From an uncultured Isosphaeraceae bacterium (GTDB taxonomy: Bacteria > Planctomycetota > Phycisphaerae > Phycisphaerales > SM1A02), in NCBI GenBank assembly GCA_964465255.1, contig CAYXKH010000005.1, forward strand, positions 9,098 to 41,193: DNA of 32,096 bases, in the 5' to 3' direction. The notes beneath the pieces are model-generated. The model did no database searches and was not told the DNA's origin. It saw nothing but the letters and a program-made list of their open reading frames with translations. Below, piece after piece: positions 17,404 to 31,979 of this stretch. The translations under genes were made by a program, and so were the position numbers. Positions within the stretch are counted from its first letter, which is position 1. Each line of letters begins with the position of its first letter.

Positions 17404-17876
17404 AGCTCCGCGAGATCGTCGTCGAGAAGGCGATTGTTCCGCGGCTCGTGGCCGTGCAGCGGGACGAGGTGATCGGCGAGATGCTGGATGTCCTGATCGC
17501 GGCCGGCACGGTCGAGCCGTCGCTGCGCGACGAGTTCATCAAGGCGGTCATCAAGCGCGAGAAGCGCGGTTCGACCGGGGTCGGACAGGGTGTGGCCATT
17601 CCGCACGTCAAGAGCGAGCGGATCGCCAGGCTCTCGGTCGCGGTCGGGGTGAGCGCCAACGGCGTCGAGTTCAGCGCCCTCGATCGTCAGCCGGTGCACC
17701 TGGTCTTTCTCGTGCTCAGTCCCGAGAACCGGCCCGAGGAGCATCTGGATGCGATGCAGGTGATCTTCTCGACGCTGGGCCAGCCGCAGTTCCGGCGGTT
17801 CCTCCGACAGGCCACCACCGTTCAGGAAATCGTCACGCTCCTCGAGGAAGCGGACGCGAGTCACTTCGTCCGTTGA
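17400..17876 (+). CDS. ptsN: PTS EIIA(Ntr)-type nitrogen regulatory protein
   Basis: EIIA-2 fold with the active-site region GVGQGVAIPHVKS. ATGA overlap with hpf; hpf-ptsN is the classic order. Confidence 0.88.
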   Translation: MKLREIVVEKAIVPRLVAVQRDEVIGEMLDVLIAAGTVEPSLRDEFIKAVIKREKRGSTGVGQGVAIPHVKSERIARLSVAVGVSANGVEFSALDRQPVHLVFLVLSPENRPEEHLDAMQVIFSTLGQPQFRRFLRQATTVQEIVTLLEEADASHFVR

Positions 17877-18019
17877 TCGTTCGTCCAGTGGTGTGCGGAG
17901 TGTCCCGGAGCGGGGCTGCCGCAGGCCGAATCTTCGCTTGTCCTTCATGTCCTTCAGATGGACCCTCGGTCGGGACTTCATTCGGTCCCTCACCCCTCGG
18001 CCATCCGCTCGGAGACTTC

Positions 18020-18301
18020 GTGCCGGATCGCTCCTCGGTCATCGTGGTCATCGCCAATCGCCTCGGGCTGCACGCTCGACCGGCGATGACGTTCGTCGAA
18101 CGGGCCATGGCCTTCGACTGCGACGTGCGGGTCCGTCGCGCCGATCAGGACGAATGCGTCGACGGCAAATCGATCATGCAGATGATGATGCTCGCAGCCA
18201 CGATGGGCACGCCCATCGAGATCGTCTGCGAAGGGCCCCAGTCCGACGCGGCCTCGGCCGCGCTCCGCGCCCTTGTCGAAAGCAAGTTCGACGAGGAGTG
18301 A
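18020..18301 (+). CDS. HPr-family phosphocarrier protein (NPr-like), 93 aa
   Basis: NRLGLHARPA (His-15 region) and DGKSIMQMMML (Ser-46 region). GTG start at 18020 with GGAG 5 nt upstream. The in-frame ORF back to 17351 overlaps ptsN and was rejected. The start is moderately uncertain. Confidence 0.85.
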   Translation: MPDRSSVIVVIANRLGLHARPAMTFVERAMAFDCDVRVRRADQDECVDGKSIMQMMMLAATMGTPIEIVCEGPQSDAASAALRALVESKFDEE

Positions 18302-18330
18302 GCGGGGGAGTGAGCGGGGGAGTGGACGGG
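18296..18330. repeat. 12-bp tandem repeat GAGTGAGCGGGG x~3, spanning the HPr stop codon
   Basis: Direct reading: gagtgagcgggg gagtgagcgggg gagtggacggg. Confidence 0.8.
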
Positions 18331-18582
18331 ACAGGTGGTCGCAACGGGCAGCGGGGGACGCAGCCACTGGTGGGCAACTCATCCCTCCGGCCAGTCGACG
18401 TCCCGCTCGAAGGGCTCGATCCTCACCAGATCGCGTTCAAGACGTTCACGACCGCTCAGAGAGAAGAGGACCGCTGCTGCGCGGCTCATCGGCTCCGTTG
18501 AGCGGGCGGCTCGGTAGGCCACCCCGCCTCCTTCAACTAGACTGCTCCGGTTCCCGCAGTCCCCTGTTGAAGGAGTTTCCTG

Positions 18583-21500
18583 ATGCGACACAGCCGATCG
18601 GTTCGTGGCAGACATGTCGTGCTTGCCTCGATCGCCCTCTCCGGCGGCGCGGGACTGGGGTCTGCTCAGCCGCTTCAGGCCACTCCGCCGGCTGCACCCG
18701 AGGGCCCATCCGCCGTCGCACCCCCGACCGGCGGCGCCGCCCCGGCAGTGGCTCCGGTCACACCGCCAGGGCCCGCAGTGGTCCCGGCTCCGGCACCCGC
18801 GCAGGCTGCTCCCGAAGTCTCCTTCAACTTCAAGTCCGCCACCTGGGAGCAGGTCCTCGACTTCTTCTCCCGGGCCACCGGCCTGCCGGTCGTCAAGGAA
18901 GTCCCGCTCCCCGACGGCGTCGTCGACTATCTCTCGCCCCGGTCCTATCCGCTTCCCGAGGCGCTCGAGACCCTGAACATCCTGCTTCAGACCCGCGGCG
19001 TCATGCTGCGCGTCGAGGCCGAGCGTCTCTACCTCCAGAAGCTCGATGACATGAAGCGGGAGAACATCCCGACCTTCATCGGCAAGCTCCCCGAGGGACT
19101 GACCAACGATCAGATCGTCACCCTGGTGATGCCGCTCAAGAATGCGGCGGCCAAGCCGGTTGCCGAGCAGCTTGCGCAGATGGTCGCGTCCTACGGCTCG
19201 ATCAGCGCGATGGAGAAGCAGAACGCCCTGGTGATCGTCGAGACCGCCGCCCAGGTGCGGCGTCTCGAGCGCATCATCAGCGAGCTCGATCGCGAGGATG
19301 TCGAGAACATCGTCGAGTTCCTCCCGATCAGGCACGCCAAGGCCACCGAGATGGTCGCGTCGCTGACGGCGCTGATGGGCGAGCGGGTGGTCGAATATGT
19401 CATCAACCCGCAGACCAATCAGAAGGTCAAGCTCGAGGAGACGCGACTCGGCGGCATGACCATCGCCGCCGACGCCCGCACCAACGCCATCGTCGCTCGC
19501 GGCACGCGGGCCAAGATCGACCAGCTCAAGCAGACGATCGAACTGCTCGATGTGGCTGGGGCCGGCGAGCGGCGGGCGATGCGCACGTTTGGGCTGCGCA
19601 CGCTGACGGCGGCGGTGGCGATGCCGCAGGTGGCGGCGCTCTTCAATTCGCTCCCCGCCGAAGGTCGGCCGATGGTGCTGCCGGCGCCGGACGGTCTGCG
19701 CCTCACCGTCGTCGGCCCCGAGACCGCAATTGCCGAAGCCGCGGCGCTGCTCGTCGAGATCGACGGCGCCCCCGGAAGCGACGCCGACGACGACATGACC
19801 CTTTCGGTCGTGGCCCTCAATCACGCGGCGCCGGAGGCAGTTGCGAACACCGCGAAGGCGGTGCTCGGGCGGCAGCTCGGCCTGGTCACCCTGACGCCCG
19901 GCGCTGACGGTCGCTCGGTGGTGGTGAGCGGCCCGGCGGGGCTGGTCGATTCGGCCAAGGCCATGATCGCGGCGCTCGATCGTCCGGCGCGAAGCGAGAA
20001 GTCGCTGCGCCTGTCTCGACTCATCGGAAGCGATCCCGCCTCAATCCTCGCCCGCGCCCAGCAGCTCTACACCGCGCAGCGCGACCCCGACGATCTTCGA
20101 GCCGAGGTCGTCGCCAACTTCGACGCTGCCACGCAGAGTGCCATCCTCGTCGGCGAAGCCCCGGCGCTCGCTCGCTTCGGAGCGATCATCGACCAGCTTC
20201 AGGCCGCCGCCGGACCGCAGCCCGACGTGCGCGTGGTGACCCTCGAGCATGCCACGGCCCAGGAGGTCGCCGACTTCCTCAATGCCCTCACCGAGAGCGA
20301 GCTCGGCATCATGTTCGCGGGGGTCGCGGGAGCCACTGGCGCATCGCGTCCCCTCATCGAGCCGATTGCCGGCACCAACACGCTGCTGGTCGCGGCCCAG
20401 CCGATGCAGCATCAGGTGATCCAGTCGCTGGTGCGCACCGTCGACGTGCCCCAGGAGACCGAGCTTCCGCCGCTTCGCATCCTCCAGTTGCGCACGGCCG
20501 ACGCCGTGAACCTCGCCCAGACGCTGATGGCGACCTACTCGCGCCGCTCCAACGAGGAGCGCAACGCGAAGCCCGCGTCGATCACCGCCGACATCCAGAC
20601 CAACGCGCTGCTGGTCGCGGCCCACCCCGATCTCCTTCCCGAGATCGAGCGGGTCGTGCAGGAGCTCAACGACAGCAATCGCGTCGACAGCGAAGGACGC
20701 GAGATCCGGATCTTCCCGCTGAAGGTGGCCCGGGCCACCGAACTGGCCAAGACCATCGACGAGATGTTCCCGCCGCCGCCGGTGCCGGTCGATCCGCGCG
20801 GTCGACCGCGCCCCGAACTCCAGAAGCCGCGGGAAGTCGTGGTCCGCGCCGATCCGCAGACGAACGCCCTGATCGTCGACGCCCCAGTGCAGCGCATGGC
20901 CGGATTCCAGGAGCTGGTGCAGTCGCTTGATCGCGCCGAGATCACCGACGAGGTCTCGATCCGCACCTGGCGCCTGCAGCGTGCCGACGTGAACGCGGCC
21001 GCGGACGCGATCCGTCAGCTCGCCGCCAATGGCTCGCTCGGGAGTGGCGCGGCGAACCGCCGCGCCGCGGTCACGGTGACCGTCGAACCGTCGACTCGCA
21101 CGCTGGTCGTCTCCGCCCCCGACGAAGCCTTCGAGAGCATCGAGCAGGTGCTCACCAGTCTCGACGAGGAGCGAGCGCTTCCCGCGACGTCGCTTCGCTT
21201 CTTCAAGCTGGTGACGGCCCGGGCCGAGAACGTGGCCCCCATGCTGCGAGAGATTCTCGCGGGCCGCATGGCCGAGGAGATTCCCGGCACGCCGGCCGAG
21301 CTGCAGGCGCTCCTCAAGGTCACGACCGACAAGAAGTCGAACGTGCTGATCATCTCGGCGCCGCCGAGCGTGATGCAGATTGCGGAAGAGCTCGTCAAGC
21401 AGATCGATTCGACCGCCAGCGCCGCCGGTGGAGTCGAGCCGATCATCCGTGTGCACCCGCTGACCTTCGCCTCGGCGAGCGAAGTCAGTCAGTCGCTTTC

Positions 21501-24500
21501 CTCGGCGCTGCCGACGATCATCAGCAAGGTGACCGGCGAGCCGGTCGCGGTGAGGCTCATCCCCAGCGTCGGCGCAAACGCCCTGATCCTCGTGGGCATC
21601 GAGTCGGAGCTCAAGGAAGTCGAAGCCCTGATCGAACCGCTCGACGCCCGCCCGGCGCTCGATGCCGTCGACGCCAGGACCTTCGAGCTCAAGCATTCCG
21701 TGGCCACGCGCATCGCGCCCCTGGTCCAGAACCTGCTCACCGATCAGCAGGAGACCGATCCGCGCATCGTGCTCGAGCGGCTGCGTCGTTCGCGCGGACA
21801 GATCGACACCACTCCGAAGGTGCGGGTCGAAGCCGACGAGCGGACCAATCGCCTGATCGTCTCGGGCCCGCAGCGGGTGGTGGCCCTGGCCGAAGCGCTG
21901 ATTGTCGAACTCGATCGGCCCGACGAGAGCGCCGAGCGCGAGATCGCCACCTTCACGCCGACCAACGCCGACCCGTCGACCCTCGCCGCCACCGTGCGAC
22001 AGGTGCTCGAGAACACCCGAGGCAGTGGGCAGCGTTCGACGCTCCAGGTGATCCCCGAACCGCAGAGCGGTGCACTGCTCCTGATTGGCACCAAGGAGGA
22101 GATCGCTCGGGCCAACACGCTTCTCAAGTCATGGGACGAGCGGGTGATCGCAGCCCCGTCGATGGATCTCAAGGTGCTGACCCTCAGGCACGCCGACCCG
22201 CGAGTGGTGGCGGGGCCGATTGCCTCGCTCCTGCAGGATCGAACGCGCTGGCCGGAGCGCCTGCGACAGACGGCGCGAGCGGGACTTCCGGTTGGTCAGC
22301 CGACGGTGACCGCGGAGGCCACCGGGCCGCGACTCCTGGTGAGTGCGCCGGGCGAGCTGATGCCGCTGGCCGAGGCGATCCTCGCCGAACTCGATCGACC
22401 GCGGGACGGGGCATCAGCAATCGAAGTCCGCACCTTCACGCTCATCCAGGCGGACGCCCGCGGAGTGAGCGACGCAGTGCGCACCGCGATGGACGCGCGG
22501 GCGACGCAGCGACCCGCCGAGACCAGGGCCACGATCTCGCCGGAACCCTCGAGCAACGCCATCGTCGCCACCGGCACTCCGGAGCAACTGGCCCAGATCG
22601 AGACGATCGTTTTGGGGCTCGACGCCGGAACGCCGCGCGATCAGGCCCAGGTGCGGACGCTCTTCCTGAAGCACGCGCGGGCGACGGAGATCATCCCGCT
22701 TCTCGAGAGCCTCCTCGTCGAGCGCGAGCTCATCGACCCCAAGGCATTGCCCACATGGGCCCAGGCCGAATACCTCCGCATCAGACAGCAGAATCTGGCC
22801 GGCAAGCCCGAGGTGCGGCTCGTCGCCGACGAGCGGTTGAACGCAATCGTGGTCGCGGCGCCGGCCTCGGTCCTCGACGCCGCCGAGCAGATGGTCGCCC
22901 AGCTCGATGTCGAGCGCGGCGAGGGCGGGGAGAGCGGTGATCGTTCGGTGCGTCTCCTCACGCTGCGCAACGCAGACGCGACCGAAGTTGCGGCGAGCCT
23001 CGAAGCGATCTTCGCCGAGGAGAAGGACCGCGAGAAGCCGCCGACGGTGCGGGTGAGCACGGCCAGCAACGGACTTCTGGTCCGAGCCAGCGAGCGGCAG
23101 TTCGCCACCATCGAGCGGGTGATCGGCGACATCGATCGGGCCACGGTGGCGACCAGCCGCCAGATGCGCACGATTCCAATCGACCAGAGCAAGGCCTCGG
23201 CGCAGGAGATTGCGGAGATGCTCCGCCGACTCCTGGGCACCGACGACGCGGCGACCAGCGTCGAAGTCATCTCGCTGGAAGAGCTCATCAAGCGCGAGGC
23301 GGGAGCGAAGCCGGCCTCGCCCGCCGGTGGGAAGCGCTCGATGGGCGGTGCGGGGCACTGGCCCGGCTCGCTTCACGCGCTCCTGATCGAGTCGATCTTT
23401 GCGCTCGCTCCCGTGGCCGCCGATGGACGGGCCGATGACGCTGGCGCAACAGCCAATGCCGAGCCCGCGCCGGAGAGCGACGGTCCGGATGTCACAATTG
23501 CCGTCGACCCACGAACCAACTCGCTGGTGCTGATTGGCTCGCCCCGGGCGGTCGAGCGCCTCGCGGAGCTGGCCAGACAGGCTCAGGAGCAGGTTCCCTC
23601 CGCCCCGCAGAAGATGCGGGTGGTCACCCTCGATCGGGCCACCGATCCGGAACGGCTCCGGGCTCTGGTGGCCCAGGTCCTCGGGCGCATCACGCCGCCG
23701 GGCGGCGCTGCGGGCGACCTGGCGAAGCGTGTCGGACTGCTTGCCGATCCGGGCACGAACGCTCTGGTGATTGCCGCAAACGACAACGACTTCCGAGCGG
23801 TGACGGAGATCCTCGTCGCCCTCGGTTCGGCTCCGACGGCAAACGACATCCCGATTCGAACGATCGTCCTCGAGCGGGCCTCCGCCGCCGCGGTCGCTCA
23901 GGCGGTGCAGCGCTTCGAGGACGAAAGGGCCAAGCTCTCCGGCGTCCGCGGTCGACGCGAGCAGCGCCGCTTCGCAATCGTCGGCGATCCGACCAGCAAC
24001 ACGATTCTCGTCGCCGCCGAGGACGAGGACTTCAAGGCCCTCGAAGCGATCGTCAAGCAGTTCGATTCACCGGCCGCGTCGGCGGCGCTCGAGATGCGGA
24101 TGTATCCGCTGCGTCACGCCCGCGCCGGCGAGATCGAGCGGACGGTGCAGGCGGTGGTCTCGGATCTCACCTGGGGACAGCCGTTCTTCGTCGGCCCGCG
24201 GGCCAGCGAATCGAGCCGTCGCGACGAGGTCGCGGTGCGCTCCGCGCCGCATCTGAATGCGCTCCTCGTCACCGGAACCGGGGACAAGTTCCAACTCGTC
24301 CAGCAGATCATCGAAGCCCTCGATACCCCCACCAGCGCCAATGCGGCGCGAGTCGTCAAGCTCTATCCGGTCAGGCACAGCGATGTCGATCTGGTGGCCG
24401 AGATCGTTCGTGATGCAGTCGGCGGCGGGCGCGAACGGCGACCGTGGGAGACCGCGGATCCGACTCAGGCCCGCGTCCGCGTCGACGCCCGGACCCGGAC

Positions 24501-27500
24501 GATCGTCGTGGTCGGCACCGAGTCGCAGCAGGCCGAGATCAGTCAGGTGCTCGCCGGCCTCGATCGCCCCGGAGACCAGAAGCCGCAGCAGACGGAAGTC
24601 GTCCGCGTGGAGTTCGCGAAAGCGTCGGAACTGGCCCGCACCCTCGGCGAGTTTCTCGAGTCGCGGGCGGCCACGGCAGGTGCCGGTCAGCCGACCGTCA
24701 CGATCGTGCCGAGCGACTCGGCCAACACGTTGCTTCTGGCCGGTGACGCCGCCGAGATCGCCACCCTGCGCGATCTGCTGACCCGGCTCGATCAGCCCGG
24801 CACCGGCGGCGATCGCCGCATCGAGATCGTGCAGATCGCCGATGGGAAGGCCGACGAACTGGCCCGCATGCTGGTCAGCCAGTTCCCGCGCGGCACCGGC
24901 GGCCAGGGCGTGATCATCACCCCCGACGTGCGGACCAACAGTCTGATCGTCAACGCGCCGCCGACGCTCTTCCCGCAGGTGATGGCCCTGATCGATCGCC
25001 TCGACGCCAAGTCGCTCGGCGATGTCACGGTCATCCGCACCTACGCCCTCACCGGAGCGCAGGCCGATGAAGCGGTGCGCATCCTCGGACAGACGCTCCA
25101 GCTCGACGCCCGCGGCCAGACTCAGCAGGGGGCCGTCGTCAGGCTCGACGAGGATGATGCCCAGCCGGTGAACGTGAAGGCTCGCGTGGTCGCCGATCGT
25201 CGCTCGAACAGTCTGGTGGTCTCGGCCACGCCGGAATCGTTCCCGGTGATCGAAGCGCTCATCAAGCGCATCGACGACGTTCCCGCGAGAAGTCCGGTCG
25301 AGTACCGGATTCTGCGCCTTCAGCATGCGCTTGCCGACGAAGTGAGCTTCACGTTGCGGCAGATCGTGCGTCCCTCCGGCGATGAGCCGGCGCCGCGCAT
25401 CGACTACAACATGGCCGAGAACCAGCTCGTGATCGGAGCCACCTCCGATCAGTTCGAGCAGGTGGCGAAGATTCTCGAACAGATCGATGTGCCCAGCGAT
25501 CGCGTGCGGCAGACCGATTTCGTGCCCATCAAGTTTGCCGGGGCCGAGAAGGTCCGTGAGGCCCTCCAGTACTTCTACGGCCCGAGGGCAATCGACGCCA
25601 ACACGCCGGGTCGGCAGTCGGTGGTGATCGTCGCCGACACCGCCACCAACAGTCTGGTCATCTCCGCCGATGCCGCCGAATGGGAAGGCATCCGCGCCCT
25701 CGTCAGCAAGCTCGACAGCGAGGAGTACGACGCCTCGCAGCAGCTTCGGGTCTTCCCGCTTCTGCACGCCGACGCGGCGGCGGTCGCCCGCGCCGTCAAC
25801 GACGCCTTCCAGGGTCGCATCGATCGCCGTGGACAGCTCGACGCGGCGCGGCGCGGTCAGAACGCACCGGGCGCCGATCCGCGCACGCAGCAGCTTCCGA
25901 CGGTGCTGGTCGAGAGCGACGAGTGGGTGAACGCCGCCGCCGAGACTCAGACCAACTCGCTGATCGTCTCGGCCAGCCGGACCAACCTGCGGAAGATCGA
26001 GCTGATCGTCGCCCAGATCGACACCGTCGATTTCGCCAAGCTGCCGCCGCCGCGGATCATCCCAATTGGCGTCGGCAATCCGGTGCAGCTCGCCGAGACG
26101 ATCCTGCGGATGTTCGCCCCCGATCCTGCCGAGCGCGGCGGCAATCGCTCGACCCGCGGCCTGCGGATCGTCGGCGACCTGGCCACCAGCGCCCTGATCG
26201 TGCGAGCCAACGACGAGGAGTTCGCTCAGGTCGAAGCCCTGGCCCAGGCGATCCAGCAGGAGGGCAGCGCTCAGGGGCTCGCGGTGAAGGTGCTTCCGCT
26301 GAAGGCGGCGCCGGCGGTGCGCGTCGCCGCGGCCATTCGCGAGGCGTACACCGCCAAGGCCAAGCAGCAGAACCTTCCACTCTCGATCTCGGTCGACGCC
26401 GCCGGCAACAGTCTGGTGATTGCCAGCAGCGCCGCGCTCTTCGCCGAGATCCGGGCCACCGTCGAAGAGATGGATGCCCTCGCCCCTGGCGTGGGTCAGG
26501 CCATCTTCGTGATCGACCTCGAGCACATCTCGCCCGAGGCGGTCAAGGGTGTGGTCGAGACCATCGGTCTCGACAAGCCGCAGCCTGAGAATTCGGTCTC
26601 GAAGGTGGTCAGCGAACCGATCAAGATCTCGCTCCTTCCGGGTCGCAAGTCGGTGATCGTGGTGGCGAATCCCGGTGATCGCGACACCGTGGTGGCGCTC
26701 TTCAAGGCGCTCGACGCCGAGCCTGCGCTCGCTCAGGGGCAGATGCGGGTCGTCAAGCTCAAGAACGCTCAGGCCGGCGCTCTGGCCGCGACCCTCTCGC
26801 AGATTCTCACTCCCGCTCCGGCGCAGGGCTCGCAGGCCCTGGCCCGCGCGGTGCAGGAGCAGCTTCGTCGCCTCGCGGTGCGTCGTGATGGTCTCAAGGA
26901 AGAGGACCTCCGCATCGATCTCGAGAAGCCGATCCGGGTCATTCCCGATGCGTCGCTCAATGCCCTCGTGGTGGCCTCGACTCCGGAGAACGTGCAGGCC
27001 ATCGAAGAGCTGATTGCGATGTTCGATCAGGTGCCGATGTCCGACGCCGTCGTCGTTCAGATCTTCCCGCTCGAGAACATCGCCGCCGATCAGTTCGCGC
27101 GGATCGTGCGCGAGCTCTTCGCCCAGGGCAAGGCTCTGGGATCGATCCCCGGGTCGAAGGTCGAAGCCGTCCCCGCAGGCACCGTCGGGCGTGCGCTGGC
27201 GGATTCGGTGGCAATCAGCATCGATTCCCGCACCAACACGGTGGTCGTCGCCGGCAAGGAGGACGCCGTCGCGCTGGTCGAAGTGCTGGTCAAGCGGATC
27301 GATACCGAGGTGGCCACCGGTTGGGTCGAGCCGCGGATCCTCCCGCTGCGCTTCGCCGATGCCGAGGAGCTCTCCACCACGCTCAACGCCGTGCTCGTCG
27401 ATGGCGCCACCGTCTCGCCCCAGTCCAACCCGCTCCAGCAGCAGGTGGCCCGACTGCGGATGCTGCGCCGCAACGGCGGCGCCTTCCCGGTGCCGCAGCC

Positions 27501-30500
27501 GCCGGTTCCGTCGAACGTGCAGGGTCCGCCGGCGCCCAACGCCGCGCCAGCGGTCGTCGTCGATGCGGCCGAGACGATGGCCGCCGACATCTTCCAGCCG
27601 ATGACCCGCACGGTCATCCGCGCCGAACGGAACATGAACGCTCTCGTGGTCGTGGCCACGCCGGCGAACCTCGAGGTGATCGGCGAGCTGGTCCGCATGC
27701 TCGACGTCGAAGCGGCCTCGCCCTCGGCGAGCGTCCGCATCTACCCCATCCAGCATGCCTCCGCCGCCAAGCTGGCCGCGATCGTGCAGCGGGTGTTCGA
27801 GCAGCAGTTCCAGGCCAAGTCGATCCGCGCCGAGGATCGGATCTCGGCCCAGGCCGACGAGCGATCGAACGCGCTCGTCGTCAGCACCAGCCCCCGCAGC
27901 TTCGCCGTGCTCGAGAGCCTGCTGAAGTCGCTGGATGCGCCGATTCCCGTGGACCTGAAGGAGATCCGCACCATCGAGCTGAAGCATGCCTCGGCGGCCC
28001 GGCTCGCCCAGATGATCCAGCAGCTCATGGATGCACGACTCGAGCGGCTGCGCCGCGTGCAGCCGGAGACGGCCGATCTCGAACGGGCCCTGGTCATCGC
28101 CGATCTGCGCAGCAACAGCCTGGTGGTCGCCGCGGGCAACGACACCTTCGATGTCATCAGGCGAATCGCCGTCGATCTCGACGTCGAGACGCTGCTCACC
28201 TCCTCGCTGGTGCAGGTGATCACCCTCGAGAAGGGGAATGCCGATCGCATCCGCGCCGCGGTGCAGCAGATTCTCGATCGCCGCTACGCCGATCTGCCGC
28301 CCGAAGTCAGACAGAGCCAGCGTCCGATGGTGCTCACCGACGCCCGCAGCAACTCGCTGCTGGTCGCGGCCGCGCCGGAGGACTTCGACCTGATCCGCGA
28401 TCTGGTCTCGAAGCTCGAGTCGGCCCCGATGAATCCCGCCGTCGGCGTGCACGTGATCGCCCTCACCAGCGGCCGCGCCGAGACGCTGGCCCCGCGCGTC
28501 GAGGCCCTCATGCAGAGCCGTCGGCAGTCGCTCGGTCCCGCAGCGATGCCCAGCGACGCGGTGAGCATCCAGCCGGAAGCCGCGAGCAACAGCCTGATCG
28601 TCGCGGCCAGCAACGAGAACGCCGAGATCATCCGTGAACTCGTCGGCGTGCTCACCGAAGCCGAGGCCGTCGGTGGCGGCCGTTCGGTCGAGATTCTGAC
28701 GCTCACCGCGAGTCGCGCAGTCGATCTCGTTCCTGTTCTCAACGAGATGTACGTCAACGAGGAGAACCGCCGCCGCGGCCAGGACAGCGTCCGCGTGACC
28801 ACCGAGCCGCGACTCAACGCGGTGGTGGTGACCGGTGATCCCGGCGATGTCGAAGCCCTCCGCGGCCTGGTGGCTCGACTCGACGGCACCAGGCCCGAGA
28901 CCGTGGTCGAGATCAAGTACATCCCGCTCGCCAGCGCCAACGCCCTGGAGACGGTGAGCCTGGTCGAGAATGTGCTGAGCGGTCGCAGCCTCGCCGGTCG
29001 CGCCGGTCGTCAGGCGACCGTGCTCAAGTACATGCGAGCGGAGAGCGAGGGGGGAACCTCGACCGAAACGCAGGTCAGTGCTGCAATCCGCGAGAGCATC
29101 AATCTCACCCCCGATGTCCGCACCAACACCATCATCGTCTCGGCTCCACGCGACTCGATGGAGATGATCGAGCGGATGATCCGCGACCTCGACGCCTCCA
29201 CGGTCGGGGCCCAGAACATCCGGGTCTTCCGACTCACCAACGCCGACGCCGAGGGGATGGCCGAGATCCTGAAGGCACTCTTCAGCCTCGAACAGCGCGG
29301 TGATCTGCTGGTCCTCAAGCCGCGCGAGCCGAGCGCCGCACCAGGTGAGGGTGGCGCGGGCGGCGCCGATGGGCCGGCGTCGGGCGGGGCCGCGCCCCAG
29401 GGTCTCGCCGGCGTCGAACTCAGCGCGGTGCCCGACGAGCGGCAACAGCTCTCGATCACCGTCGACAGCCGCACCAACAGTCTGCTGGTCTCGGCCACCC
29501 CGACCTATCTCGACCTCGTGGCCCAGGTCGTCAAGGAGCTCGACGCCCAGGAGGCCAACGAGCGCGAGACCAACATCTATCGCCTGAAGAATGCGGTCGC
29601 GGCCGAAGTGGCCCGCGTGGTCAGCACCTTCGTGGAGCAGGACCAGAAGAAGCTGATCGACACCCTCGGCAGCGATCAGTTGCCCTCGGCGGCGCGACTC
29701 CTCGAGCGCGAGGTGACCATCGTCGGCGACGACAAGACCAACACCGTCCTGATCAACGCCAGCCCGCGCTACATGACTCGGGTCGAGGACATCATCCGCG
29801 AGCTCGACGTCGATCCGCCGCAGGTGCTGATCCAGGTGCTGCTGGCCGAGATCACCCTCGATGCGACCACGGAAACCGGCGTCGACATGGAGGCCGCCGT
29901 CGACATCGGCGAGTACCTCGTCGGCGGCGGCTTTGGCCTCGCCAGCGTCGCGGCCACCAGCGTCGGCGTGCCCACCGTGCCCTTCTCGAAGATCCCGCAG
30001 ATTGCAGTGACCGGCCCCGACTTCTCGCTTCTCATCAAGGCCCTCCAGTCGCAGGGACGCCTTCAGGTCCTGAGCAATCCCTCAGTCATGGCGGCCAACA
30101 ACGAAGAGGCCGACATCCAGGTGGGCGAGACCATTCGGGTGCCGGAGAGCACCTCCTTCGTGCAGGGGCAGCAGCAGTCGTCGGTCGTCGCCGAGGACAT
30201 CGGCATCATTCTGAAGGTGAGGCCGTCGATCAATCCCGACGGCTTCGTGCGGATGGACATCAATCCGGAGATCTCGGAGCTCTCCCAGCGCACCACGCAG
30301 ATCTCCGAGAACTTCGAAGCTCCGATCATCACCAGGCGCCGGGCCAACACCACCGTCACCGTGCGTGACGGCGAGACCATCGTGATCGGCGGCCTGATCT
30401 CCGACCGCTACGAGAAGCGCGGCAACAAGGTCCCGATCCTCGGCGACATCCCGGTGATCGGGTTCTTCTTCCGCCGCGACATCGAGACCGTCGCCAAGAC

Positions 30501-30822
30501 CGAGCTCCTGATCGTCATCACTCCCCACGTGGTCATGAGCCCCTCGTCGCTCCAGGTCGAGCGCGGCAAGAGCCTGACCAACGAGCAGATCGATCGCCTC
30601 TCGCTTCCCGACTGGATGAAGGACCAGATTCGCAAGGGCGAGCTGGAAGGACTCGAGCAGCTCTACGACGACGAGGGACGCCCCATCGAAGAAGGCGCCT
30701 TCCAGAAGTCGTCGCGTCGGCGCATTCCGACTCCGCCGCCGGGACCGACTCGGCCCGAGCCCCGTCCGGAAGCCATGACCCCAGTCCAGGGCGGGTCGTC
30801 AGCCGCAGGAGGCGCACCGTGA
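18583..30822 (+). CDS. giant secretin (type II/III secretion system secretin family), 4,079 aa
   Basis: Single uninterrupted ORF with GAAGGAG 7 nt upstream of the ATG. It has a Sec signal peptide, an N0-like domain, ~41-42 secretin N-domain repeats and a canonical C-terminal secretin domain ending ELLIVITPHVV. Confidence 0.9.
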   Translation: MRHSRSVRGRHVVLASIALSGGAGLGSAQPLQATPPAAPEGPSAVAPPTGGAAPAVAPVTPPGPAVVPAPAPAQAAPEVSFNFKSATWEQVLDFFSRATGLPVVKEVPLPDGVVDYLSPRSYPLPEALETLNILLQTRGVMLRVEAERLYLQKLDDMKRENIPTFIGKLPEGLTNDQIVTLVMPLKNAAAKPVAEQLAQMVASYGSISAMEKQNALVIVETAAQVRRLERIISELDREDVENIVEFLPIRHAKATEMVASLTALMGERVVEYVINPQTNQKVKLEETRLGGMTIAADARTNAIVARGTRAKIDQLKQTIELLDVAGAGERRAMRTFGLRTLTAAVAMPQVAALFNSLPAEGRPMVLPAPDGLRLTVVGPETAIAEAAALLVEIDGAPGSDADDDMTLSVVALNHAAPEAVANTAKAVLGRQLGLVTLTPGADGRSVVVSGPAGLVDSAKAMIAALDRPARSEKSLRLSRLIGSDPASILARAQQLYTAQRDPDDLRAEVVANFDAATQSAILVGEAPALARFGAIIDQLQAAAGPQPDVRVVTLEHATAQEVADFLNALTESELGIMFAGVAGATGASRPLIEPIAGTNTLLVAAQPMQHQVIQSLVRTVDVPQETELPPLRILQLRTADAVNLAQTLMATYSRRSNEERNAKPASITADIQTNALLVAAHPDLLPEIERVVQELNDSNRVDSEGREIRIFPLKVARATELAKTIDEMFPPPPVPVDPRGRPRPELQKPREVVVRADPQTNALIVDAPVQRMAGFQELVQSLDRAEITDEVSIRTWRLQRADVNAAADAIRQLAANGSLGSGAANRRAAVTVTVEPSTRTLVVSAPDEAFESIEQVLTSLDEERALPATSLRFFKLVTARAENVAPMLREILAGRMAEEIPGTPAELQALLKVTTDKKSNVLIISAPPSVMQIAEELVKQIDSTASAAGGVEPIIRVHPLTFASASEVSQSLSSALPTIISKVTGEPVAVRLIPSVGANALILVGIESELKEVEALIEPLDARPALDAVDARTFELKHSVATRIAPLVQNLLTDQQETDPRIVLERLRRSRGQIDTTPKVRVEADERTNRLIVSGPQRVVALAEALIVELDRPDESAEREIATFTPTNADPSTLAATVRQVLENTRGSGQRSTLQVIPEPQSGALLLIGTKEEIARANTLLKSWDERVIAAPSMDLKVLTLRHADPRVVAGPIASLLQDRTRWPERLRQTARAGLPVGQPTVTAEATGPRLLVSAPGELMPLAEAILAELDRPRDGASAIEVRTFTLIQADARGVSDAVRTAMDARATQRPAETRATISPEPSSNAIVATGTPEQLAQIETIVLGLDAGTPRDQAQVRTLFLKHARATEIIPLLESLLVERELIDPKALPTWAQAEYLRIRQQNLAGKPEVRLVADERLNAIVVAAPASVLDAAEQMVAQLDVERGEGGESGDRSVRLLTLRNADATEVAASLEAIFAEEKDREKPPTVRVSTASNGLLVRASERQFATIERVIGDIDRATVATSRQMRTIPIDQSKASAQEIAEMLRRLLGTDDAATSVEVISLEELIKREAGAKPASPAGGKRSMGGAGHWPGSLHALLIESIFALAPVAADGRADDAGATANAEPAPESDGPDVTIAVDPRTNSLVLIGSPRAVERLAELARQAQEQVPSAPQKMRVVTLDRATDPERLRALVAQVLGRITPPGGAAGDLAKRVGLLADPGTNALVIAANDNDFRAVTEILVALGSAPTANDIPIRTIVLERASAAAVAQAVQRFEDERAKLSGVRGRREQRRFAIVGDPTSNTILVAAEDEDFKALEAIVKQFDSPAASAALEMRMYPLRHARAGEIERTVQAVVSDLTWGQPFFVGPRASESSRRDEVAVRSAPHLNALLVTGTGDKFQLVQQIIEALDTPTSANAARVVKLYPVRHSDVDLVAEIVRDAVGGGRERRPWETADPTQARVRVDARTRTIVVVGTESQQAEISQVLAGLDRPGDQKPQQTEVVRVEFAKASELARTLGEFLESRAATAGAGQPTVTIVPSDSANTLLLAGDAAEIATLRDLLTRLDQPGTGGDRRIEIVQIADGKADELARMLVSQFPRGTGGQGVIITPDVRTNSLIVNAPPTLFPQVMALIDRLDAKSLGDVTVIRTYALTGAQADEAVRILGQTLQLDARGQTQQGAVVRLDEDDAQPVNVKARVVADRRSNSLVVSATPESFPVIEALIKRIDDVPARSPVEYRILRLQHALADEVSFTLRQIVRPSGDEPAPRIDYNMAENQLVIGATSDQFEQVAKILEQIDVPSDRVRQTDFVPIKFAGAEKVREALQYFYGPRAIDANTPGRQSVVIVADTATNSLVISADAAEWEGIRALVSKLDSEEYDASQQLRVFPLLHADAAAVARAVNDAFQGRIDRRGQLDAARRGQNAPGADPRTQQLPTVLVESDEWVNAAAETQTNSLIVSASRTNLRKIELIVAQIDTVDFAKLPPPRIIPIGVGNPVQLAETILRMFAPDPAERGGNRSTRGLRIVGDLATSALIVRANDEEFAQVEALAQAIQQEGSAQGLAVKVLPLKAAPAVRVAAAIREAYTAKAKQQNLPLSISVDAAGNSLVIASSAALFAEIRATVEEMDALAPGVGQAIFVIDLEHISPEAVKGVVETIGLDKPQPENSVSKVVSEPIKISLLPGRKSVIVVANPGDRDTVVALFKALDAEPALAQGQMRVVKLKNAQAGALAATLSQILTPAPAQGSQALARAVQEQLRRLAVRRDGLKEEDLRIDLEKPIRVIPDASLNALVVASTPENVQAIEELIAMFDQVPMSDAVVVQIFPLENIAADQFARIVRELFAQGKALGSIPGSKVEAVPAGTVGRALADSVAISIDSRTNTVVVAGKEDAVALVEVLVKRIDTEVATGWVEPRILPLRFADAEELSTTLNAVLVDGATVSPQSNPLQQQVARLRMLRRNGGAFPVPQPPVPSNVQGPPAPNAAPAVVVDAAETMAADIFQPMTRTVIRAERNMNALVVVATPANLEVIGELVRMLDVEAASPSASVRIYPIQHASAAKLAAIVQRVFEQQFQAKSIRAEDRISAQADERSNALVVSTSPRSFAVLESLLKSLDAPIPVDLKEIRTIELKHASAARLAQMIQQLMDARLERLRRVQPETADLERALVIADLRSNSLVVAAGNDTFDVIRRIAVDLDVETLLTSSLVQVITLEKGNADRIRAAVQQILDRRYADLPPEVRQSQRPMVLTDARSNSLLVAAAPEDFDLIRDLVSKLESAPMNPAVGVHVIALTSGRAETLAPRVEALMQSRRQSLGPAAMPSDAVSIQPEAASNSLIVAASNENAEIIRELVGVLTEAEAVGGGRSVEILTLTASRAVDLVPVLNEMYVNEENRRRGQDSVRVTTEPRLNAVVVTGDPGDVEALRGLVARLDGTRPETVVEIKYIPLASANALETVSLVENVLSGRSLAGRAGRQATVLKYMRAESEGGTSTETQVSAAIRESINLTPDVRTNTIIVSAPRDSMEMIERMIRDLDASTVGAQNIRVFRLTNADAEGMAEILKALFSLEQRGDLLVLKPREPSAAPGEGGAGGADGPASGGAAPQGLAGVELSAVPDERQQLSITVDSRTNSLLVSATPTYLDLVAQVVKELDAQEANERETNIYRLKNAVAAEVARVVSTFVEQDQKKLIDTLGSDQLPSAARLLEREVTIVGDDKTNTVLINASPRYMTRVEDIIRELDVDPPQVLIQVLLAEITLDATTETGVDMEAAVDIGEYLVGGGFGLASVAATSVGVPTVPFSKIPQIAVTGPDFSLLIKALQSQGRLQVLSNPSVMAANNEEADIQVGETIRVPESTSFVQGQQQSSVVAEDIGIILKVRPSINPDGFVRMDINPEISELSQRTTQISENFEAPIITRRRANTTVTVRDGETIVIGGLISDRYEKRGNKVPILGDIPVIGFFFRRDIETVAKTELLIVITPHVVMSPSSLQVERGKSLTNEQIDRLSLPDWMKDQIRKGELEGLEQLYDDEGRPIEEGAFQKSSRRRIPTPPPGPTRPEPRPEAMTPVQGGSSAAGGAP
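18817..19050 (+). other. N0/STN-like domain of the secretin
   Basis: VSFNFKSATWEQVLDFFSRATGLPVVKEVPLPDGVVDYLSPRSYPLPEALETLNILLQTRGVMLRVEAERLYL resembles GspD N0 / secretin-TonB N-terminal domains. It is preceded by a signal peptide (18583-~18672) and an Ala/Pro-rich linker. Confidence 0.6.
19111..29815 (+). repeat. protein-level tandem array of ~41-42 secretin N-domain (ring-building-motif) repeats, ~85 aa each
   Basis: A recurring unit has two parts. It begins with a strand/helix such as IRVFPLKHADAxxVAxxL. It ends with d.rTNsLIVsAp...f..Ie.li..LD (e.g. IQTNALLVAAHPDLLPEIERVVQELN, VRTNSLIVNAPPTLFPQVMALIDRLD, SRTNSLLVSATPTYLDLVAQVVKELD). I counted 42 TNxL-type motifs by hand. The units are diverged at the DNA level. 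Confidence 0.8.
29816..30537 (+). other. C-terminal secretin beta-barrel domain
   Basis: VLIQVLLAEITLD; FSLLIKALQSQGRLQVLSNPSVMAANNEEADIQVGE; GIILKVRPSINPDGFVRMDINPEISELS; ITRRRANTTVTVRDGETIVIGGLI; KVPILGDIPVIGFFFRR; ELLIVITPHVV. Confidence 0.9.
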
Positions 30823-31400
30823 GCGTTCGTCGACCCGGAGGCACGCTCTGTCGTTCGAGGCGTTCGGCTGCTCTCGGGTTCGGCGGTGCGATCGTTGCCG
30901 TGCTCGCGGCCTGCCAGACCACGGTCACTCAGGGAAGCAACGTGCGCCCGATGCCTCCGAAGCCCACGGCGGGGCCGGTGACACCGCCGACCGCGGCGGT
31001 GAACAGCGTGGCCCTCCTGCTCCTGAGTCCGAAGGCCCGCGATACTGACGGCAACGGGATTCCCGACACCATCGACGTCGAGGTCTATCTCTTCGCCGAA
31101 CCGTTCCCTGCGCCGGTCTTCGCCGACGGCGAGTTCATCTTCCGGCTCTCCACCGCGGGCACATCCACCGATCGATCCGCCCCCGCCCTGCGCGAATGGC
31201 GCTTCAGCGGCGAAGTGATCCTCGCCGCCCGCTCGCGCGCCCTTGCAGGCCCGTGCTACCGCTTCGCTCTGAGCCTGCTCGCCGACGGCGGCCGCGAACT
31301 CGCGGTCTCGACCGCCGATCTCACTCTCACCTTCCAGGCCTCCGGCGACCGTCCCCCCGTCCACATCTCCGGTGTCCGCACCGTGCAGTTGGTGGGGTAG
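30819..31400 (+). CDS. lipoprotein of unknown function, translationally coupled to the secretin, 193 aa
   Basis: The GTG start overlaps the secretin TGA (GTGA). Lipobox AVLAAC follows a basic n-region. It also has a Pro-rich linker, an Asp-rich DTDGNGIPDTID motif and a beta-rich remainder. Confidence 0.65.
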   Translation: MSVRRPGGTLCRSRRSAALGFGGAIVAVLAACQTTVTQGSNVRPMPPKPTAGPVTPPTAAVNSVALLLLSPKARDTDGNGIPDTIDVEVYLFAEPFPAPVFADGEFIFRLSTAGTSTDRSAPALREWRFSGEVILAARSRALAGPCYRFALSLLADGGRELAVSTADLTLTFQASGDRPPVHISGVRTVQLVG

Positions 31401-31442: not shown

Positions 31443-31979
31443 TCAGCGCATTGTCAACCGACCCGGCAGGTTGCCTGTCGCCCGCTCCTCGCGCACGTGG
31501 TGGTGACAGGAGAAGCATGACGCGGCGACGCGGAGATAGGCGGCCTCGGCGGCGACGTGATCGCGAGCCCTGGCCGCTTCGGCGAGGGCGGTCACATCGC
31601 GGCGGAACGACTCGCTGAGGGCGCGATAGGCCACGGTGTCGCTCACTGCGAACGCGGTGCTCAGGCTGAGCTTGCGAAGCTCTTCGGCGTTGGCCTCGAT
31701 CGTGGCGCAGTCGCGCACCGAGACCGCCTGAAGAAGCGGTGCCGCGAAGACGACCTTCATCGACATGATCTCGGCGACCGCCTCGCGATCCACGACACTC
31801 GTCCGGACGGCCTGCGGCCCTGCGAGTGACTCAGGAGGGGTCGTCTGATCGGTCCGCGCCCCAGCATCGCGGCTGGATTCGACTTCGGTCTCCGAGTTGC
31901 AGGCGGCAATCCACGGCACGGCAATTGCAACAGTGGCAAGAAGCACGACGCTGGCACGGCTGACATTGAGACGGGGCAT
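31443..31979 (-). CDS. cytochrome c'-like (class II cytochrome c) lipoprotein, ~178 aa
   Basis: Single heme motif CFSCH ~20 residues from the C-terminus of a helical ~130-aa body, which is the class II cytochrome c arrangement. The start is taken at MPRLNVSRASVVLLATVAIAVPWIAAC (signal peptide with lipobox IAAC). The coordinate is derived from the ORF-track frame; my hand check of this ATG did not close (cat read at 31976-31978, out of frame), so treat the exact start as uncertain by a few nt. Confidence 0.6.
   Translation of the reverse strand: MPRLNVSRASVVLLATVAIAVPWIAACNSETEVESSRDAGARTDQTTPPESLAGPQAVRTSVVDREAVAEIMSMKVVFAAPLLQAVSVRDCATIEANAEELRKLSLSTAFAVSDTVAYRALSESFRRDVTALAEAARARDHVAAEAAYLRVAASCFSCHHHVREERATGNLPGRLTMR

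What the first reader, a model, noticed from the sequence alone, without database searches (positions are those of the whole stretch)
18583..30822. 4,079-aa 'mega-secretin' with ~40 tandem N-domain repeats
Seen in sequence: one 12.2-kb ORF encodes a signal peptide, an Ala/Pro linker, an N0-like domain, ~41-42 copies of an ~85-aa secretin N-domain-like unit (counted by the recurring TNsLIVsA...LD motif), and a textbook secretin barrel. Established knowledge: characterised secretins (GspD, PilQ, InvG/YscC, pIV, RcpA) are roughly 450-900 aa and carry about 2-4 such periplasmic ring domains. Inference: if these units stack as rings at roughly 3 nm each (my recollection of GspD/InvG structures), the periplasmic conduit would exceed 100 nm, several-fold wider than an ordinary Gram-negative periplasm. 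That points either to a cell plan with a greatly enlarged periplasm (planctomycete-like) or to a different use of the repeats, such as a tether, a cage or peptidoglycan threading. I did not notice long identical DNA repeats among the units, so the array looks old and selected rather than a recent amplification or an assembly artefact.
Basis: partly seen in the sequence, partly recalled or inferred. Interest (0 to 1): 0.85.

Follow-up and report, generated by a model that had tools for sequence, protein, structure and literature searches.

The report
Giant 42-ring type II secretin
This is a real 4,079-residue outer-membrane secretion channel from a planctomycete (class Phycisphaerae) whose periplasmic part has 42 ring-building domains where known secretins have 1 to 6; it belongs to a large family found only in metagenomes that has not been studied, and it may build the longest periplasmic protein tube known.

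Summary
ORF 18583-30822 (+) encodes 4,079 aa: a signal peptide, an Ala/Pro linker, a GspD-type N0 domain, 42 tandem Secretin_N (ring-building) domains that tile aa 182-3742 with uniform 9-14-aa linkers, a secretin barrel and a C-terminal tail. The units are only about 23% identical to each other, and there are no long DNA repeats. The same ORF appears in at least 7 independent assemblies. It is not an oddity: at least 108 full-length relatives (cluster representatives at 50% identity) carry 26-74 units, median 43. All that carry a name or record title come from Planctomycetota metagenome-assembled genomes, mostly Phycisphaerae, and those names are automatic. Units are positionally orthologous. 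In all 16 related loci the gene ends a T2SS-like operon (gspF-G-...-J-K-L-like-M/C-like-D) and is followed by a conserved lipoprotein. In this window only the secretin-lipoprotein pair is present. Both ends score best as GspD. I found no paper that describes such secretins; the largest characterised one, Thermus PilQ, has six rings. The inference of a conduit longer than 100 nm is plausible but untested, and described Phycisphaeraceae are reported to lack crateriform structures and internal membranes. Verdict: a new variant of a known kind, of high interest.

The parts
18570..18575 (+). Shine-Dalgarno-like AAGGAG, 7 nt upstream of the ATG at 18583
   Evidence: Read from the sequence.
18583..18669 (+). 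Signal peptide (about aa 1-29): basic n-region, hydrophobic core, GSA|QP
   Evidence: Translation. Read by eye, no predictor run. Homologues have similar N-termini.
18670..18813 (+). Ala/Pro-rich linker (aa 30-77)
   Evidence: Translation. Poorly conserved, 32-42% identity to orthologues.
18814..19092 (+). N0 domain, GspD type (aa 78-170), the domain that docks secretins onto their inner-membrane partner
   Evidence: phmmer against PDB hits only T2SS GspD N0-N1-N2 (3EZJ, E 3.5e-11). TIGR02517 model positions 1-234 match aa 81-331 at 100 bits, against 44 bits for PilQ. 62-84% identical to orthologues, among the best conserved parts.
19126..29808 (+). Array of 42 Secretin_N / ring-building-motif domains (aa 182-3742), beta-alpha-beta-beta-alpha each, joined by 9-14-aa linkers
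   Evidence: Pfam PF03958 in 38 stretches. Own HMM finds 42 units with contiguous tiling. AlphaFold of u39-u42 gives four b-a-b-b-a domains with block pLDDT about 82-94 in their ordered parts. Each unit is positionally orthologous.
23167..23580 (+). Unit 18 with an insert of about 70-85 aa in the alpha1-beta2 loop (aa 1529-1666; contains the hydrophobic stretch LHALLIESIFALAPVAA)
   Evidence: Unit length 138 aa against a median of about 68. Present in orthologues with 11-15% gaps. Function untested.
27334..27705 (+). Unit 34 with a long insert (aa 2918-3041; PLQQQVARLR motif shared with homologues)
29221..29544 (+). Unit 41 with a long, partly disordered insert (aa 3547-3654; LVLKPRE motif conserved)
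   Evidence: AlphaFold pLDDT is below 50 across the insert.
29821..30534 (+). Secretin C-domain / beta-barrel (aa 3747-3984; Pfam Secretin core aa 3820-3984)
   Evidence: PF00263 E 3.8e-52. The AlphaFold beta-barrel region is confident. Foldseek top hits are T2SS GspD structures, E 1e-28 to 1e-26.
30535..30822 (+). C-terminal tail (aa 3985-4079) with one predicted helix (aa 3987-4005; the conserved PDWMKDQI motif lies just after it, aa 4009-4016), then a Pro-rich disordered end and the stop codon. It sits where the S-domain that binds a pilotin sits in other secretins.
   Evidence: Helix at model residues 627-645. PDWMKDQI was conserved enough to serve as a scan pattern. The S-domain role is an inference.
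30819..31400 (+). 193-aa lipoprotein gene whose GTG start overlaps the secretin stop by 4 nt (lipobox LAAC, invariant Cys32; beta-sandwich aa 61-190). Candidate pilotin or accessory protein.
   Evidence: Found immediately downstream of the giant secretin in 14 of 14 related loci that extend that far. Alignment with invariant Cys. AlphaFold pLDDT 74. No Pfam or NCBIfam family.

Best explanation
The gene encodes the outer-membrane secretin (GspD type) of a divergent type II secretion / type IV filament-like machine of a Phycisphaerae planctomycete. Shown: the protein is exported (signal peptide). Its C-terminal domain is a secretin barrel. Its N-terminus keeps the GspD-type N0 domain that in all studied secretins docks onto the inner-membrane platform. 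Between them lie 42 ring-building domains joined by GspD-like short linkers, and each one is individually conserved. Relatives sit at the end of a gspF-G-(H)-(I)-J-K-L-like-M/C-like operon. A lipoprotein gene is always translationally coupled downstream. Inferred: like other secretins it forms a 12-16-mer, about 6.5 MDa if it is a 15-mer. The N-domains of neighbouring subunits form stacked rings, as N1-N3 do in GspD and N0-N5 do in Thermus PilQ. The result would be a segmented tube of 43 rings. At my recalled 3-4.5 nm per ring this is on the order of 130-190 nm, linking the outer-membrane pore to an inner-membrane platform whose own periplasmic parts are of ordinary size. The pseudopilin fibre (GspG, tipped by GspK-J-I) would polymerise inside this tube, and folded exoproteins would enter at the inner-membrane end. 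Such exoproteins could include the polysaccharide-degrading enzymes typical of these bacteria. The long-insert units (u18, u34, u41) may form internal gates. The lipoprotein would act as a pilotin or outer-membrane anchor through the C-terminal tail. Length varies between lineages (26-74 units), mainly by gain and loss of units just after N0-u02, which suggests that the tube length is tuned to each lineage's envelope.
For: Identity as a GspD-type secretin: and (C-terminal 534 aa: GspD 282 bits, PilQ 181, YscC 146; N-terminal 339 aa: GspD 100, PilQ 44). Array anatomy: 42 contiguous units with uniform 9-14-aa linkers. The u01-to-u02 junction aligns with the GspD N1-to-N2 junction. Selection on every unit: orthologous units are 35-91% identical and paralogous units 23%. 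N0, u01 and u02 and u42 plus the barrel are among the most conserved parts, as expected if both ends keep their canonical contacts. Operon context in relatives: all 16 loci have GspJ-like, GspK-like, a roughly 500-aa PilM/GspL-like gene and a roughly 330-aa gene directly upstream. Two loci show T2SSF-T2SSG-...-secretin, and one has GspE nearby. The platform proteins have ordinary periplasmic parts. The lipoprotein is conserved in 14 of 14 loci. Family size: 108 full-length members with 26-74 units and a slope of 83 aa per unit. Precedent: Thermus PilQ uses six stacked rings to span a wide periplasm, and the secretin N-module is described as superposed rings whose number depends on the machine.
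Against: No structural or experimental datum shows that all 42 units form rings or that the rings stack straight. The monomer model has pTM 0.47, and its alignment to GspD has rmsd 17-19 A. Described Phycisphaeraceae are 0.3-1.3 um cocci reported to lack crateriform structures, and internal membranes appear absent in the class, so a periplasm of 130 nm or more is not documented and would be 10-60% of the cell diameter. In this window the gene is not next to any T2SS gene: it follows hpf-ptsN-HPr, there are no T2SS genes within 10 kb downstream, and there are no tblastn hits of the relatives' upstream genes in the window. The upstream genes of relatives match GspI/J/K/L models only weakly, below the curated cut-offs. 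The lipoprotein resembles no known pilotin. The rise per ring is my recollection, not a measured value.
Confidence: 0.55

Rival explanations
1. Same secretin and same machine, but the N-array is not a straight continuous tube. It could be a flexible, extensible or collapsible tether (accordion or beads on a string) that keeps the pore connected to the inner-membrane platform while the periplasm width changes. It could instead fold back into a compact multi-layered cage or vestibule that fits a normal periplasm.
For: Phycisphaeraceae are not reported to have an enlarged periplasm or crateriform structures. The N-modules of ordinary secretins are flexible and poorly resolved. The rings of Thermus PilQ move relative to each other. 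AlphaFold gives confident domains but no fixed inter-domain geometry. An indel hot spot at u03-u06 tolerates gain and loss of units.
Against: The very uniform short linkers (9-14 aa) and the position-specific conservation of every unit are more than a mere spacer would seem to need. No precedent is known to me for ring-building domains forming folded-back layers within one chain.
Confidence: 0.3
2. The secretin has been recruited for something other than classical protein secretion. It could be a nozzle for exopolysaccharide or slime, a conduit for a long surface fibre or pilus, or a route for uptake of polymers. The long tube would guide a polymer across the envelope.
For: GspD/PilQ-family secretins form slime nozzles in cyanobacteria and myxobacteria (abstract of PMC12475490, listed). 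Phycisphaeraceae isolates carry fimbriae or polar fibres and one grows embedded in an extracellular matrix. In this window the gene is uncoupled from the T2SS genes. Planctomycetes are proposed to fish polysaccharides with pili.
Against: In all 16 related loci the gene is embedded in a pseudopilin/GspF/GspG operon, not in a polysaccharide-export cluster. Both ends score best as GspD. A pseudopilus-driven T2SS remains the simplest reading, although a pilus-like fibre is not excluded by it.
Confidence: 0.12
3. Artefact: a chimeric or collapsed assembly of repeats, a fusion of several genes through sequencing errors, or a decaying pseudogene.
For: Two related loci from long-read MAGs (L003, L015) have the gene split by frameshifts or stops. 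Most database hits are fragments.
Against: The identical ORF is recovered in independent assemblies. There are no DNA repeats above 77% identity over 69 nt that could mislead an assembler. Intact orthologues of 2,514-4,899 aa lie on contigs of up to 3.05 Mb. Alignments are collinear end to end. GC3 is of coding type throughout. 108 full-length family members were found.
Confidence: 0.02

Closest known systems
T2SS secretin GspD / PulD / XcpQ (for example ETEC GspD 5ZDH and 3EZJ, K. pneumoniae PulD 6HCG, V. cholerae EpsD 5WQ8)
   Same: Same domain grammar: signal peptide, N0, ring-building N-domains with short linkers, secretin barrel, C-terminal tail. Best sequence and structure matches at both ends. 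Relatives lie in a gspF-G-...-K-L-M-D operon. A lipoprotein is encoded next to it, as for pilotins.
   Different: 42 ring-building domains (26-74 in the family) where GspD has three, N1-N3. 4,079 aa against about 650. The middle 39 units have no counterpart in GspD. The partner genes are very divergent, below the curated cut-offs. The lipoprotein is not a PulS/AspS-type pilotin. In this genome the gene is detached from the operon.
Thermus thermophilus PilQ (T4P / DNA-uptake secretin, 757 aa, six stacked rings N0-N5)
   Same: It is the characterised precedent for adding ring domains so that a secretin spans an unusually wide periplasm. The rings are b-a-b-b-a domains, the stack is flexible, and loops form internal gates.
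   Different: Six rings against 43. It is of PilQ type and not GspD type (PilQ models score lower here). It belongs to a pilus machine. It comes from a different phylum.
GspD/PilQ-family 'nozzle' secretins of cyanobacteria and myxobacteria (slime secretion)
   Same: They are T2SS-type secretins used for a non-classical cargo. This shows that secretin function is not limited to protein export (abstract seen).
   Different: I did not read this paper beyond the abstract, so its N-domain content is unchecked. The operon context of the present family is pseudopilin-based.
Secretin pilotins (PulS/OutS, AspS, MxiM, ExsB, PilF/PilW, TadD)
   Same: Small outer-membrane lipoproteins encoded beside the secretin, often binding its C-terminal S-domain. 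Here the 193-aa lipoprotein is translationally coupled and co-conserved.
   Different: No sequence family is hit, and the predicted beta-sandwich has no significant match to any solved pilotin. The role is inferred from position only.

Membership tests
Secretin superfamily (Pfam PF00263; TCDB 1.B.22) | C-terminal secretin domain forming the double beta-barrel | tested here: met
   PF00263 E 3.8e-52 over profile positions 1-168 of 169. The AlphaFold barrel is confident. Foldseek hits GspD, InvG, PilQ, pIV and RcpA.
Secretin superfamily | Periplasmic N-module of ring-building (Secretin_N) domains joined by short linkers | tested here: met
   38 Pfam stretches and 42 units by own HMM, with linkers of 9-14 aa. 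The number is far outside the known range.
Secretin superfamily | Homo-oligomer of 12-16 subunits with stacked rings | not testable with these tools
   Only monomer prediction was available. This needs multimer modelling or EM.
T2SS secretin GspD (NCBIfam TIGR02517, equivalog) | Score above the curated cut-off (351 bits) and better than the PilQ and SctC models | tested here: met
   The whole protein scores 1148 bits, inflated by the repeats. The ends alone score 100 + 282 = 382 bits and beat PilQ (44 + 181) and YscC (28 + 146). The margin over the cut-off is small once the repeats are removed.
T2SS secretin GspD | N-terminal N0 domain of GspD type (partner of the GspC HR domain) | tested here: met
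   phmmer against PDB returns only GspD N0-N1-N2 chains. Binding to a GspC-like partner was not tested.
T2SS secretin GspD | Encoded with the T2SS core genes gspE/F/G and the minor pseudopilins | tested here: not met
   In this window, not met: the neighbours are hpf, ptsN-like, HPr and unrelated genes. In relatives, met: 16 of 16 loci have J/K/L-like/M-like genes upstream, and two loci show T2SSF-T2SSG upstream, one with GspE nearby. Whether this genome has the operon elsewhere could not be tested.
T4P secretin PilQ (TIGR02515) | Best match to the PilQ model, AMIN domains, pilMNOPQ context | tested here: not met
   PilQ scores are lower than GspD scores at both ends. There is no AMIN hit. The context in relatives is gsp-like, although the L-like gene weakly resembles PilM.
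Known pilotin families (PulS/AspS/MxiM/ExsB/PilF/TadD) | Lipoprotein signal, plus sequence or fold similarity to a known pilotin | tested here: not met
   The lipobox with invariant Cys is met. No family hit. Foldseek against PDB gives no match with E below 1e-3, only generic Ig-like sandwiches. It may work like a pilotin but is not a member of a known pilotin family.

The most novel reading that the evidence does not exclude
The family builds a rigid or semi-rigid protein nanotube of 27-75 stacked rings, roughly 100-300 nm long and 6-11 MDa, between the two membranes. That would be the longest periplasmic conduit known. It would mean that Phycisphaerae have, at least locally, a periplasm several times wider than reported, and that a type II secretion pseudopilus must act as a piston or conveyor over more than 100 nm. 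Unit number would be an evolvable ruler of envelope width.
Probability: 0.35. Interest if true: 0.9.

Novelty: new variant of a known kind. Interest (0 to 1): 0.75.

Why it matters
Secretins are the universal outer-membrane gates of type II and type III secretion, type IV pili and filamentous phage. Their periplasmic module has been taken to be one to six rings matched to a periplasm of about 20-35 nm. A conserved, widespread family with 26-74 rings breaks that rule by an order of magnitude. It raises concrete questions. How wide is the periplasm of Phycisphaerae, an abundant class of polysaccharide degraders whose cell biology is barely known? Can the piston model of type II secretion work over more than 100 nm? 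How are 600 to 1,100 ring-building domains assembled and targeted? Does domain number act as a molecular ruler? The family also gives a natural length series for testing how ring-building motifs stack, and a possible scaffold for engineered protein nanotubes.

Tried and rejected
1. A whole-protein query to the search for homologous proteins timed out. The C-terminal query returned only fragments of at most 1,180 aa, none with an N0 domain, so that table says nothing about full lengths.
2. Full lengths came instead from genome loci and from a profile of the 42 units searched against 1.84 billion representatives.
3. The mechanical ORF 17893-18501 (202 aa) upstream is spurious: it is Arg-rich, has no homologues and no coding GC3. 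The real gene there is HPr at 18020-18301.
4. The 1,792-aa antisense ORF 24067-29445 and other minus-strand ORFs inside the gene are GC-rich shadow ORFs.
5. Pilotin identity of the lipoprotein: there is no family hit and no structural match. I keep it only as an inference from position.
6. I tried to test ring-stack geometry by superimposing an AlphaFold model of u39-u42 plus the barrel on GspD. The domain folds match, but the global rmsd is 17-19 A with pTM 0.47, so the test is uninformative.
7. A link to planctomycetal crateriform structures is rejected for now, because described Phycisphaeraceae lack them.
8. Ten literature searches found no description of multi-ring giant secretins. Terms included secretin with Planctomycetes, Phycisphaerae, crateriform, giant, GspD, Secretin_N and enlarged periplasm. 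Surveys of giant proteins and a 2025 review of the phylum do not mention them. The library omits most subscription journals, so absence is not proof.
9. Promoter and terminator scans around the gene gave nothing above chance.
10. Three cluster look-ups gave only MAG or metagenome sources, so no cultured host was identified.
Full report
OBSERVATION

The window (68% G+C) contains one ORF at 18583-30822 (+) of 4,079 codons. Its composition is that of a real gene: GC3 is 0.86 and GC2 is 0.46. An AAGGAG sits 7 nt before the ATG.

Pfam reports 38 Secretin_N stretches (1180 bits) and one Secretin domain at aa 3820-3984 (E 3.8e-52). NCBIfam ranks GspD first.

An HMM grown from one unit by iteration on the protein itself finds 42 units that tile aa 182-3742 with no unassigned stretch. 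Linkers are 9-14 aa, median 10. Most units are 55-94 aa. Three carry long inserts: u18 (138 aa), u34 (124 aa) and u41 (108 aa).

Residues 59-339 align to the crystal-structure sequence of ETEC GspD N0-N1-N2 (3EZJ, E 3.5e-11), and only T2SS GspD chains are hit. The N-terminal domain is therefore a GspD-type N0, and u01 and u02 correspond to N1 and N2.

AlphaFold on aa 3361-4010, with a 63-sequence alignment, gives four confident beta-alpha-beta-beta-alpha domains followed by a beta-barrel. Foldseek then returns T2SS GspD structures first (5ZDH, 6I1X, 6I1Y, 6HCG, 5WQ8, 5WQ7; E 1e-28 to 1e-26).

The protein has no cysteine. The mature chain is about 433 kDa with pI 5.0.

NOT AN ARTEFACT, NOT RECENT

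- The units are on average 23% identical to each other, 40% at most, and identity does not depend on distance along the chain.
- The best direct DNA repeats are 50-69 nt at 60-77% identity, centred on the D-x-x-T-N-x-L-x-V motif. There is no tandem DNA array.
- The identical 4,079-aa product is called on contigs from three assemblies: JGI 3300022222, ENA ERZ505514 (61 kb, 51x) and Logan SRR6448207. Four further Logan runs carry the identical downstream gene behind an upstream ORF of 3,327-3,329 aa that is cut off by the contig end.
- Orthologues are intact on contigs of up to 3.05 Mb.

A LARGE, CONSERVED FAMILY

A scan of one genome per GTDB species returned 16 loci. All are Planctomycetota MAGs, mostly labelled Phycisphaerales or Phycisphaeraceae, with two labelled Isosphaeraceae. 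G+C ranges from 54 to 73%. Twelve hold intact ORFs of 2,514-4,899 aa with about 22-52 units. Two are cut by contig ends. Two long-read assemblies have the gene interrupted.

A profile of the 42 units, searched against 1.84 billion cluster representatives, gave 2,022 proteins at E <= 1e-30. The top 150 are 2,185-5,532 aa with 22-59 matched stretches. Of 175 retrieved sequences, 108 are full length (N0 at the start, secretin at the end). They hold 26-74 units, median 43, and length rises by 83 aa per unit. The longest are 6,805 and 6,885 aa. The window's protein is thus a typical member of its family, not an outlier.

All source names are automatic ('secretin N-terminal domain-containing protein', 'type II secretion system protein D'), and all sources are MAGs or metagenomes.

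POSITIONAL ORTHOLOGY

BLASTP alignments to the homologues are collinear from end to end: 66% over 4,053 columns to L001, and 42-43% to L016 and L007. Longer or shorter homologues align anchored at the C-terminus. For example, window aa 140-4022 aligns to L008 aa 646-4564, and window aa 1798-4036 to L004 aa 291-2503.

Unit by unit, identity to orthologues is 35-91%, against 23% between paralogous units. N0, u01, u02, u08, u12, u27, u42 and the barrel are the most conserved. The zone u03-u06 is an indel hot spot. Each unit has therefore been kept as an individual for a long time, and changes in length are concentrated just behind the N0-N1-N2 head.

CONTEXT

In the window the upstream genes are hpf, a PTS EIIA (ptsN-like) gene and HPr (18020-18301). 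Further out are unrelated housekeeping genes. The 10 kb beyond the downstream gene hold no secretion genes.

Immediately downstream, overlapping the stop codon, is a 193-aa ORF with a lipobox (LAAC, invariant Cys32) and a predicted beta-sandwich. It follows the giant secretin in 14 of 14 related loci that reach that far. It has no Pfam or NCBIfam family and no significant structural neighbour in the PDB.

In all 16 related loci the secretin is preceded by the following genes:
- a GspI-like gene;
- a GspJ-like gene (N_methyl + T2SSJ);
- a GspK-like gene (HHH_3 / T2SSK);
- a roughly 500-aa PilM/GspL-like gene;
- a roughly 330-aa gene.

Two loci read further upstream show T2SSF-T2SSG-x-x-J-K-L-like-M/C-like-secretin. 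One of them has a GspE ATPase gene about 6 kb further upstream on the opposite strand.

By eye, the roughly 500-aa protein is a cytoplasmic actin-like domain, one transmembrane helix and about 160 periplasmic residues. The roughly 330-aa protein is a membrane anchor, a coiled coil, a proline-rich linker and a small C-terminal beta domain reminiscent of the GspC HR domain or PilP. This reading is mine and was not tested. None of these genes is in the window. In this organism the secretin-lipoprotein pair has been separated from the operon.

WHICH SECRETIN TYPE

Scoring the ends separately removes the inflation caused by the repeats. The C-terminal 534 aa give GspD 282 bits, PilQ 181, MshL 163 and YscC 146. 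The N-terminal 339 aa give GspD 100 bits (model positions 1-234) and PilQ 44. Together with the operon context, this places the protein as the GspD of a divergent T2SS-like machine.

MECHANISM

Shown:
- an exported protein;
- a GspD-type N0 at one end and a secretin barrel at the other;
- 42 individually conserved ring-building domains with GspD-like junctions;
- T2SS genes around the orthologues;
- a co-conserved lipoprotein.

Established knowledge: secretin N-modules are superposed rings joined by short linkers, the number of rings depends on the machine, and N0 contacts the inner-membrane partner. From: Thermus PilQ uses six rings to span a wide periplasm and is called one of the largest characterised.

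Inference: the protein oligomerises, and the 43 N-terminal domains form a stack of rings. At a recalled 3-4.5 nm per ring that is about 130-190 nm, and about 6.5 MDa for a 15-mer. The stack would connect the pore to a platform whose own periplasmic parts are ordinary. The pseudopilus would run inside it. Units with long inserts might form gates, and the lipoprotein might act as a pilotin through the C-terminal tail.

I put 0.95 on 'GspD-type secretin of a T2SS-like system' and about 0.55 on the long stacked-ring conduit.

WHAT SPEAKS AGAINST THE LONG STRAIGHT TUBE

Described Phycisphaeraceae are cocci of 0.3-1.3 um without crateriform structures. A recent review states that internal membranes appear to be absent in Phycisphaerae. 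A rod of 130-190 nm would be 10-60% of the cell diameter.

The monomer model says nothing about the packing between domains. A flexible or foldable array is therefore a serious rival (0.3). A non-protein cargo such as slime or a fibre is a lesser rival (0.12); secretins of this family serve as slime nozzles in cyanobacteria and myxobacteria (abstract).

NOVELTY

Ten literature searches, two surveys of giant proteins and a 2025 review of the phylum gave no description of secretins with tens of N-domains. A TCDB survey gives secretins as 555 +/- 151 aa.

The sequences are in public databases under automatic names, so the family is catalogued but, as far as I could find, unstudied. I rate it a new variant of a known kind: the same parts and probably the same machine, with one module expanded ten-fold or more and conserved across a class. 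Interest is 0.75. It would be higher if the long conduit is confirmed.

Noticed in passing
window 17020-18301: hpf (ribosome hibernation factor), a PTS EIIA-2 (ptsN-like) gene and HPr (18020-18301) form a nitrogen-PTS-like trio directly upstream of the secretin. The mechanical ORF 17893-18501 that overlaps HPr is spurious.
   Followed up: partly
window 24067-29445 (-) and other minus-strand ORFs within 18583-30822: A 1,792-aa antisense ORF and many antisense ORFs of 100-550 aa lie inside the secretin gene. The shorter ones that passed the GC3 filter have high GC at codon position 2, typical of shadow ORFs in GC-rich DNA. I take all of them as non-genes.
   Followed up: partly
window 23167-23580, 27334-27705, 29221-29544: Three units (u18, u34, u41) carry conserved inserts of roughly 40-85 aa in the alpha1-beta2 loop. 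The u18 insert holds a hydrophobic stretch (LHALLIESIFALAPVAA). They could be internal gates or partner-binding sites.
   Followed up: no
window 19582-20445 (u03-u06): This is the least conserved part of the array and an indel hot spot: u04 and u05 are absent or replaced in the 43-unit orthologues L007 and L016. Differences in length between family members map to the N-terminal side, just behind N0-u02.
   Followed up: partly
L003 4300-18069; L015 5952-19873: In two long-read MAG assemblies the giant gene is broken into 2-4 ORFs by frameshifts or stops. These are probably sequencing errors, but pseudogenisation is not excluded.
   Followed up: no
L008 4863-5849; L007 4339-5337 (gene just upstream of the secretin in relatives): A roughly 330-aa protein with no Pfam hit that looks like a membrane anchor, a coiled coil, a Pro-rich linker and a small C-terminal beta domain. 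It is possibly a fused GspM/GspC(HR)- or PilP-like partner for N0.
   Followed up: partly
window 31443-31979 (-): A conserved 178-aa gene convergent with the lipoprotein gene (a weak cytochrome c'-like Pfam hit on the longer 213-aa ORF). It is present in all assemblies of this organism, and tblastn found no match to it in any related locus.
   Followed up: no
L008, L009, L010, L011, L013, L014, downstream of the lipoprotein: In the Phycisphaeraceae-type loci the secretin-lipoprotein pair is followed by a phosphate-binding-protein-like gene (PBP_like_2) and a roughly 960-aa ABC permease fusion. In L007 and L016 a SASA-family carbohydrate esterase follows instead.
   Followed up: partly
window 18583-30819: There is no cysteine in 4,079 residues. 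The protein is acidic (pI 5.0) and rich in Ala, Val, Leu and Arg.
   Followed up: no
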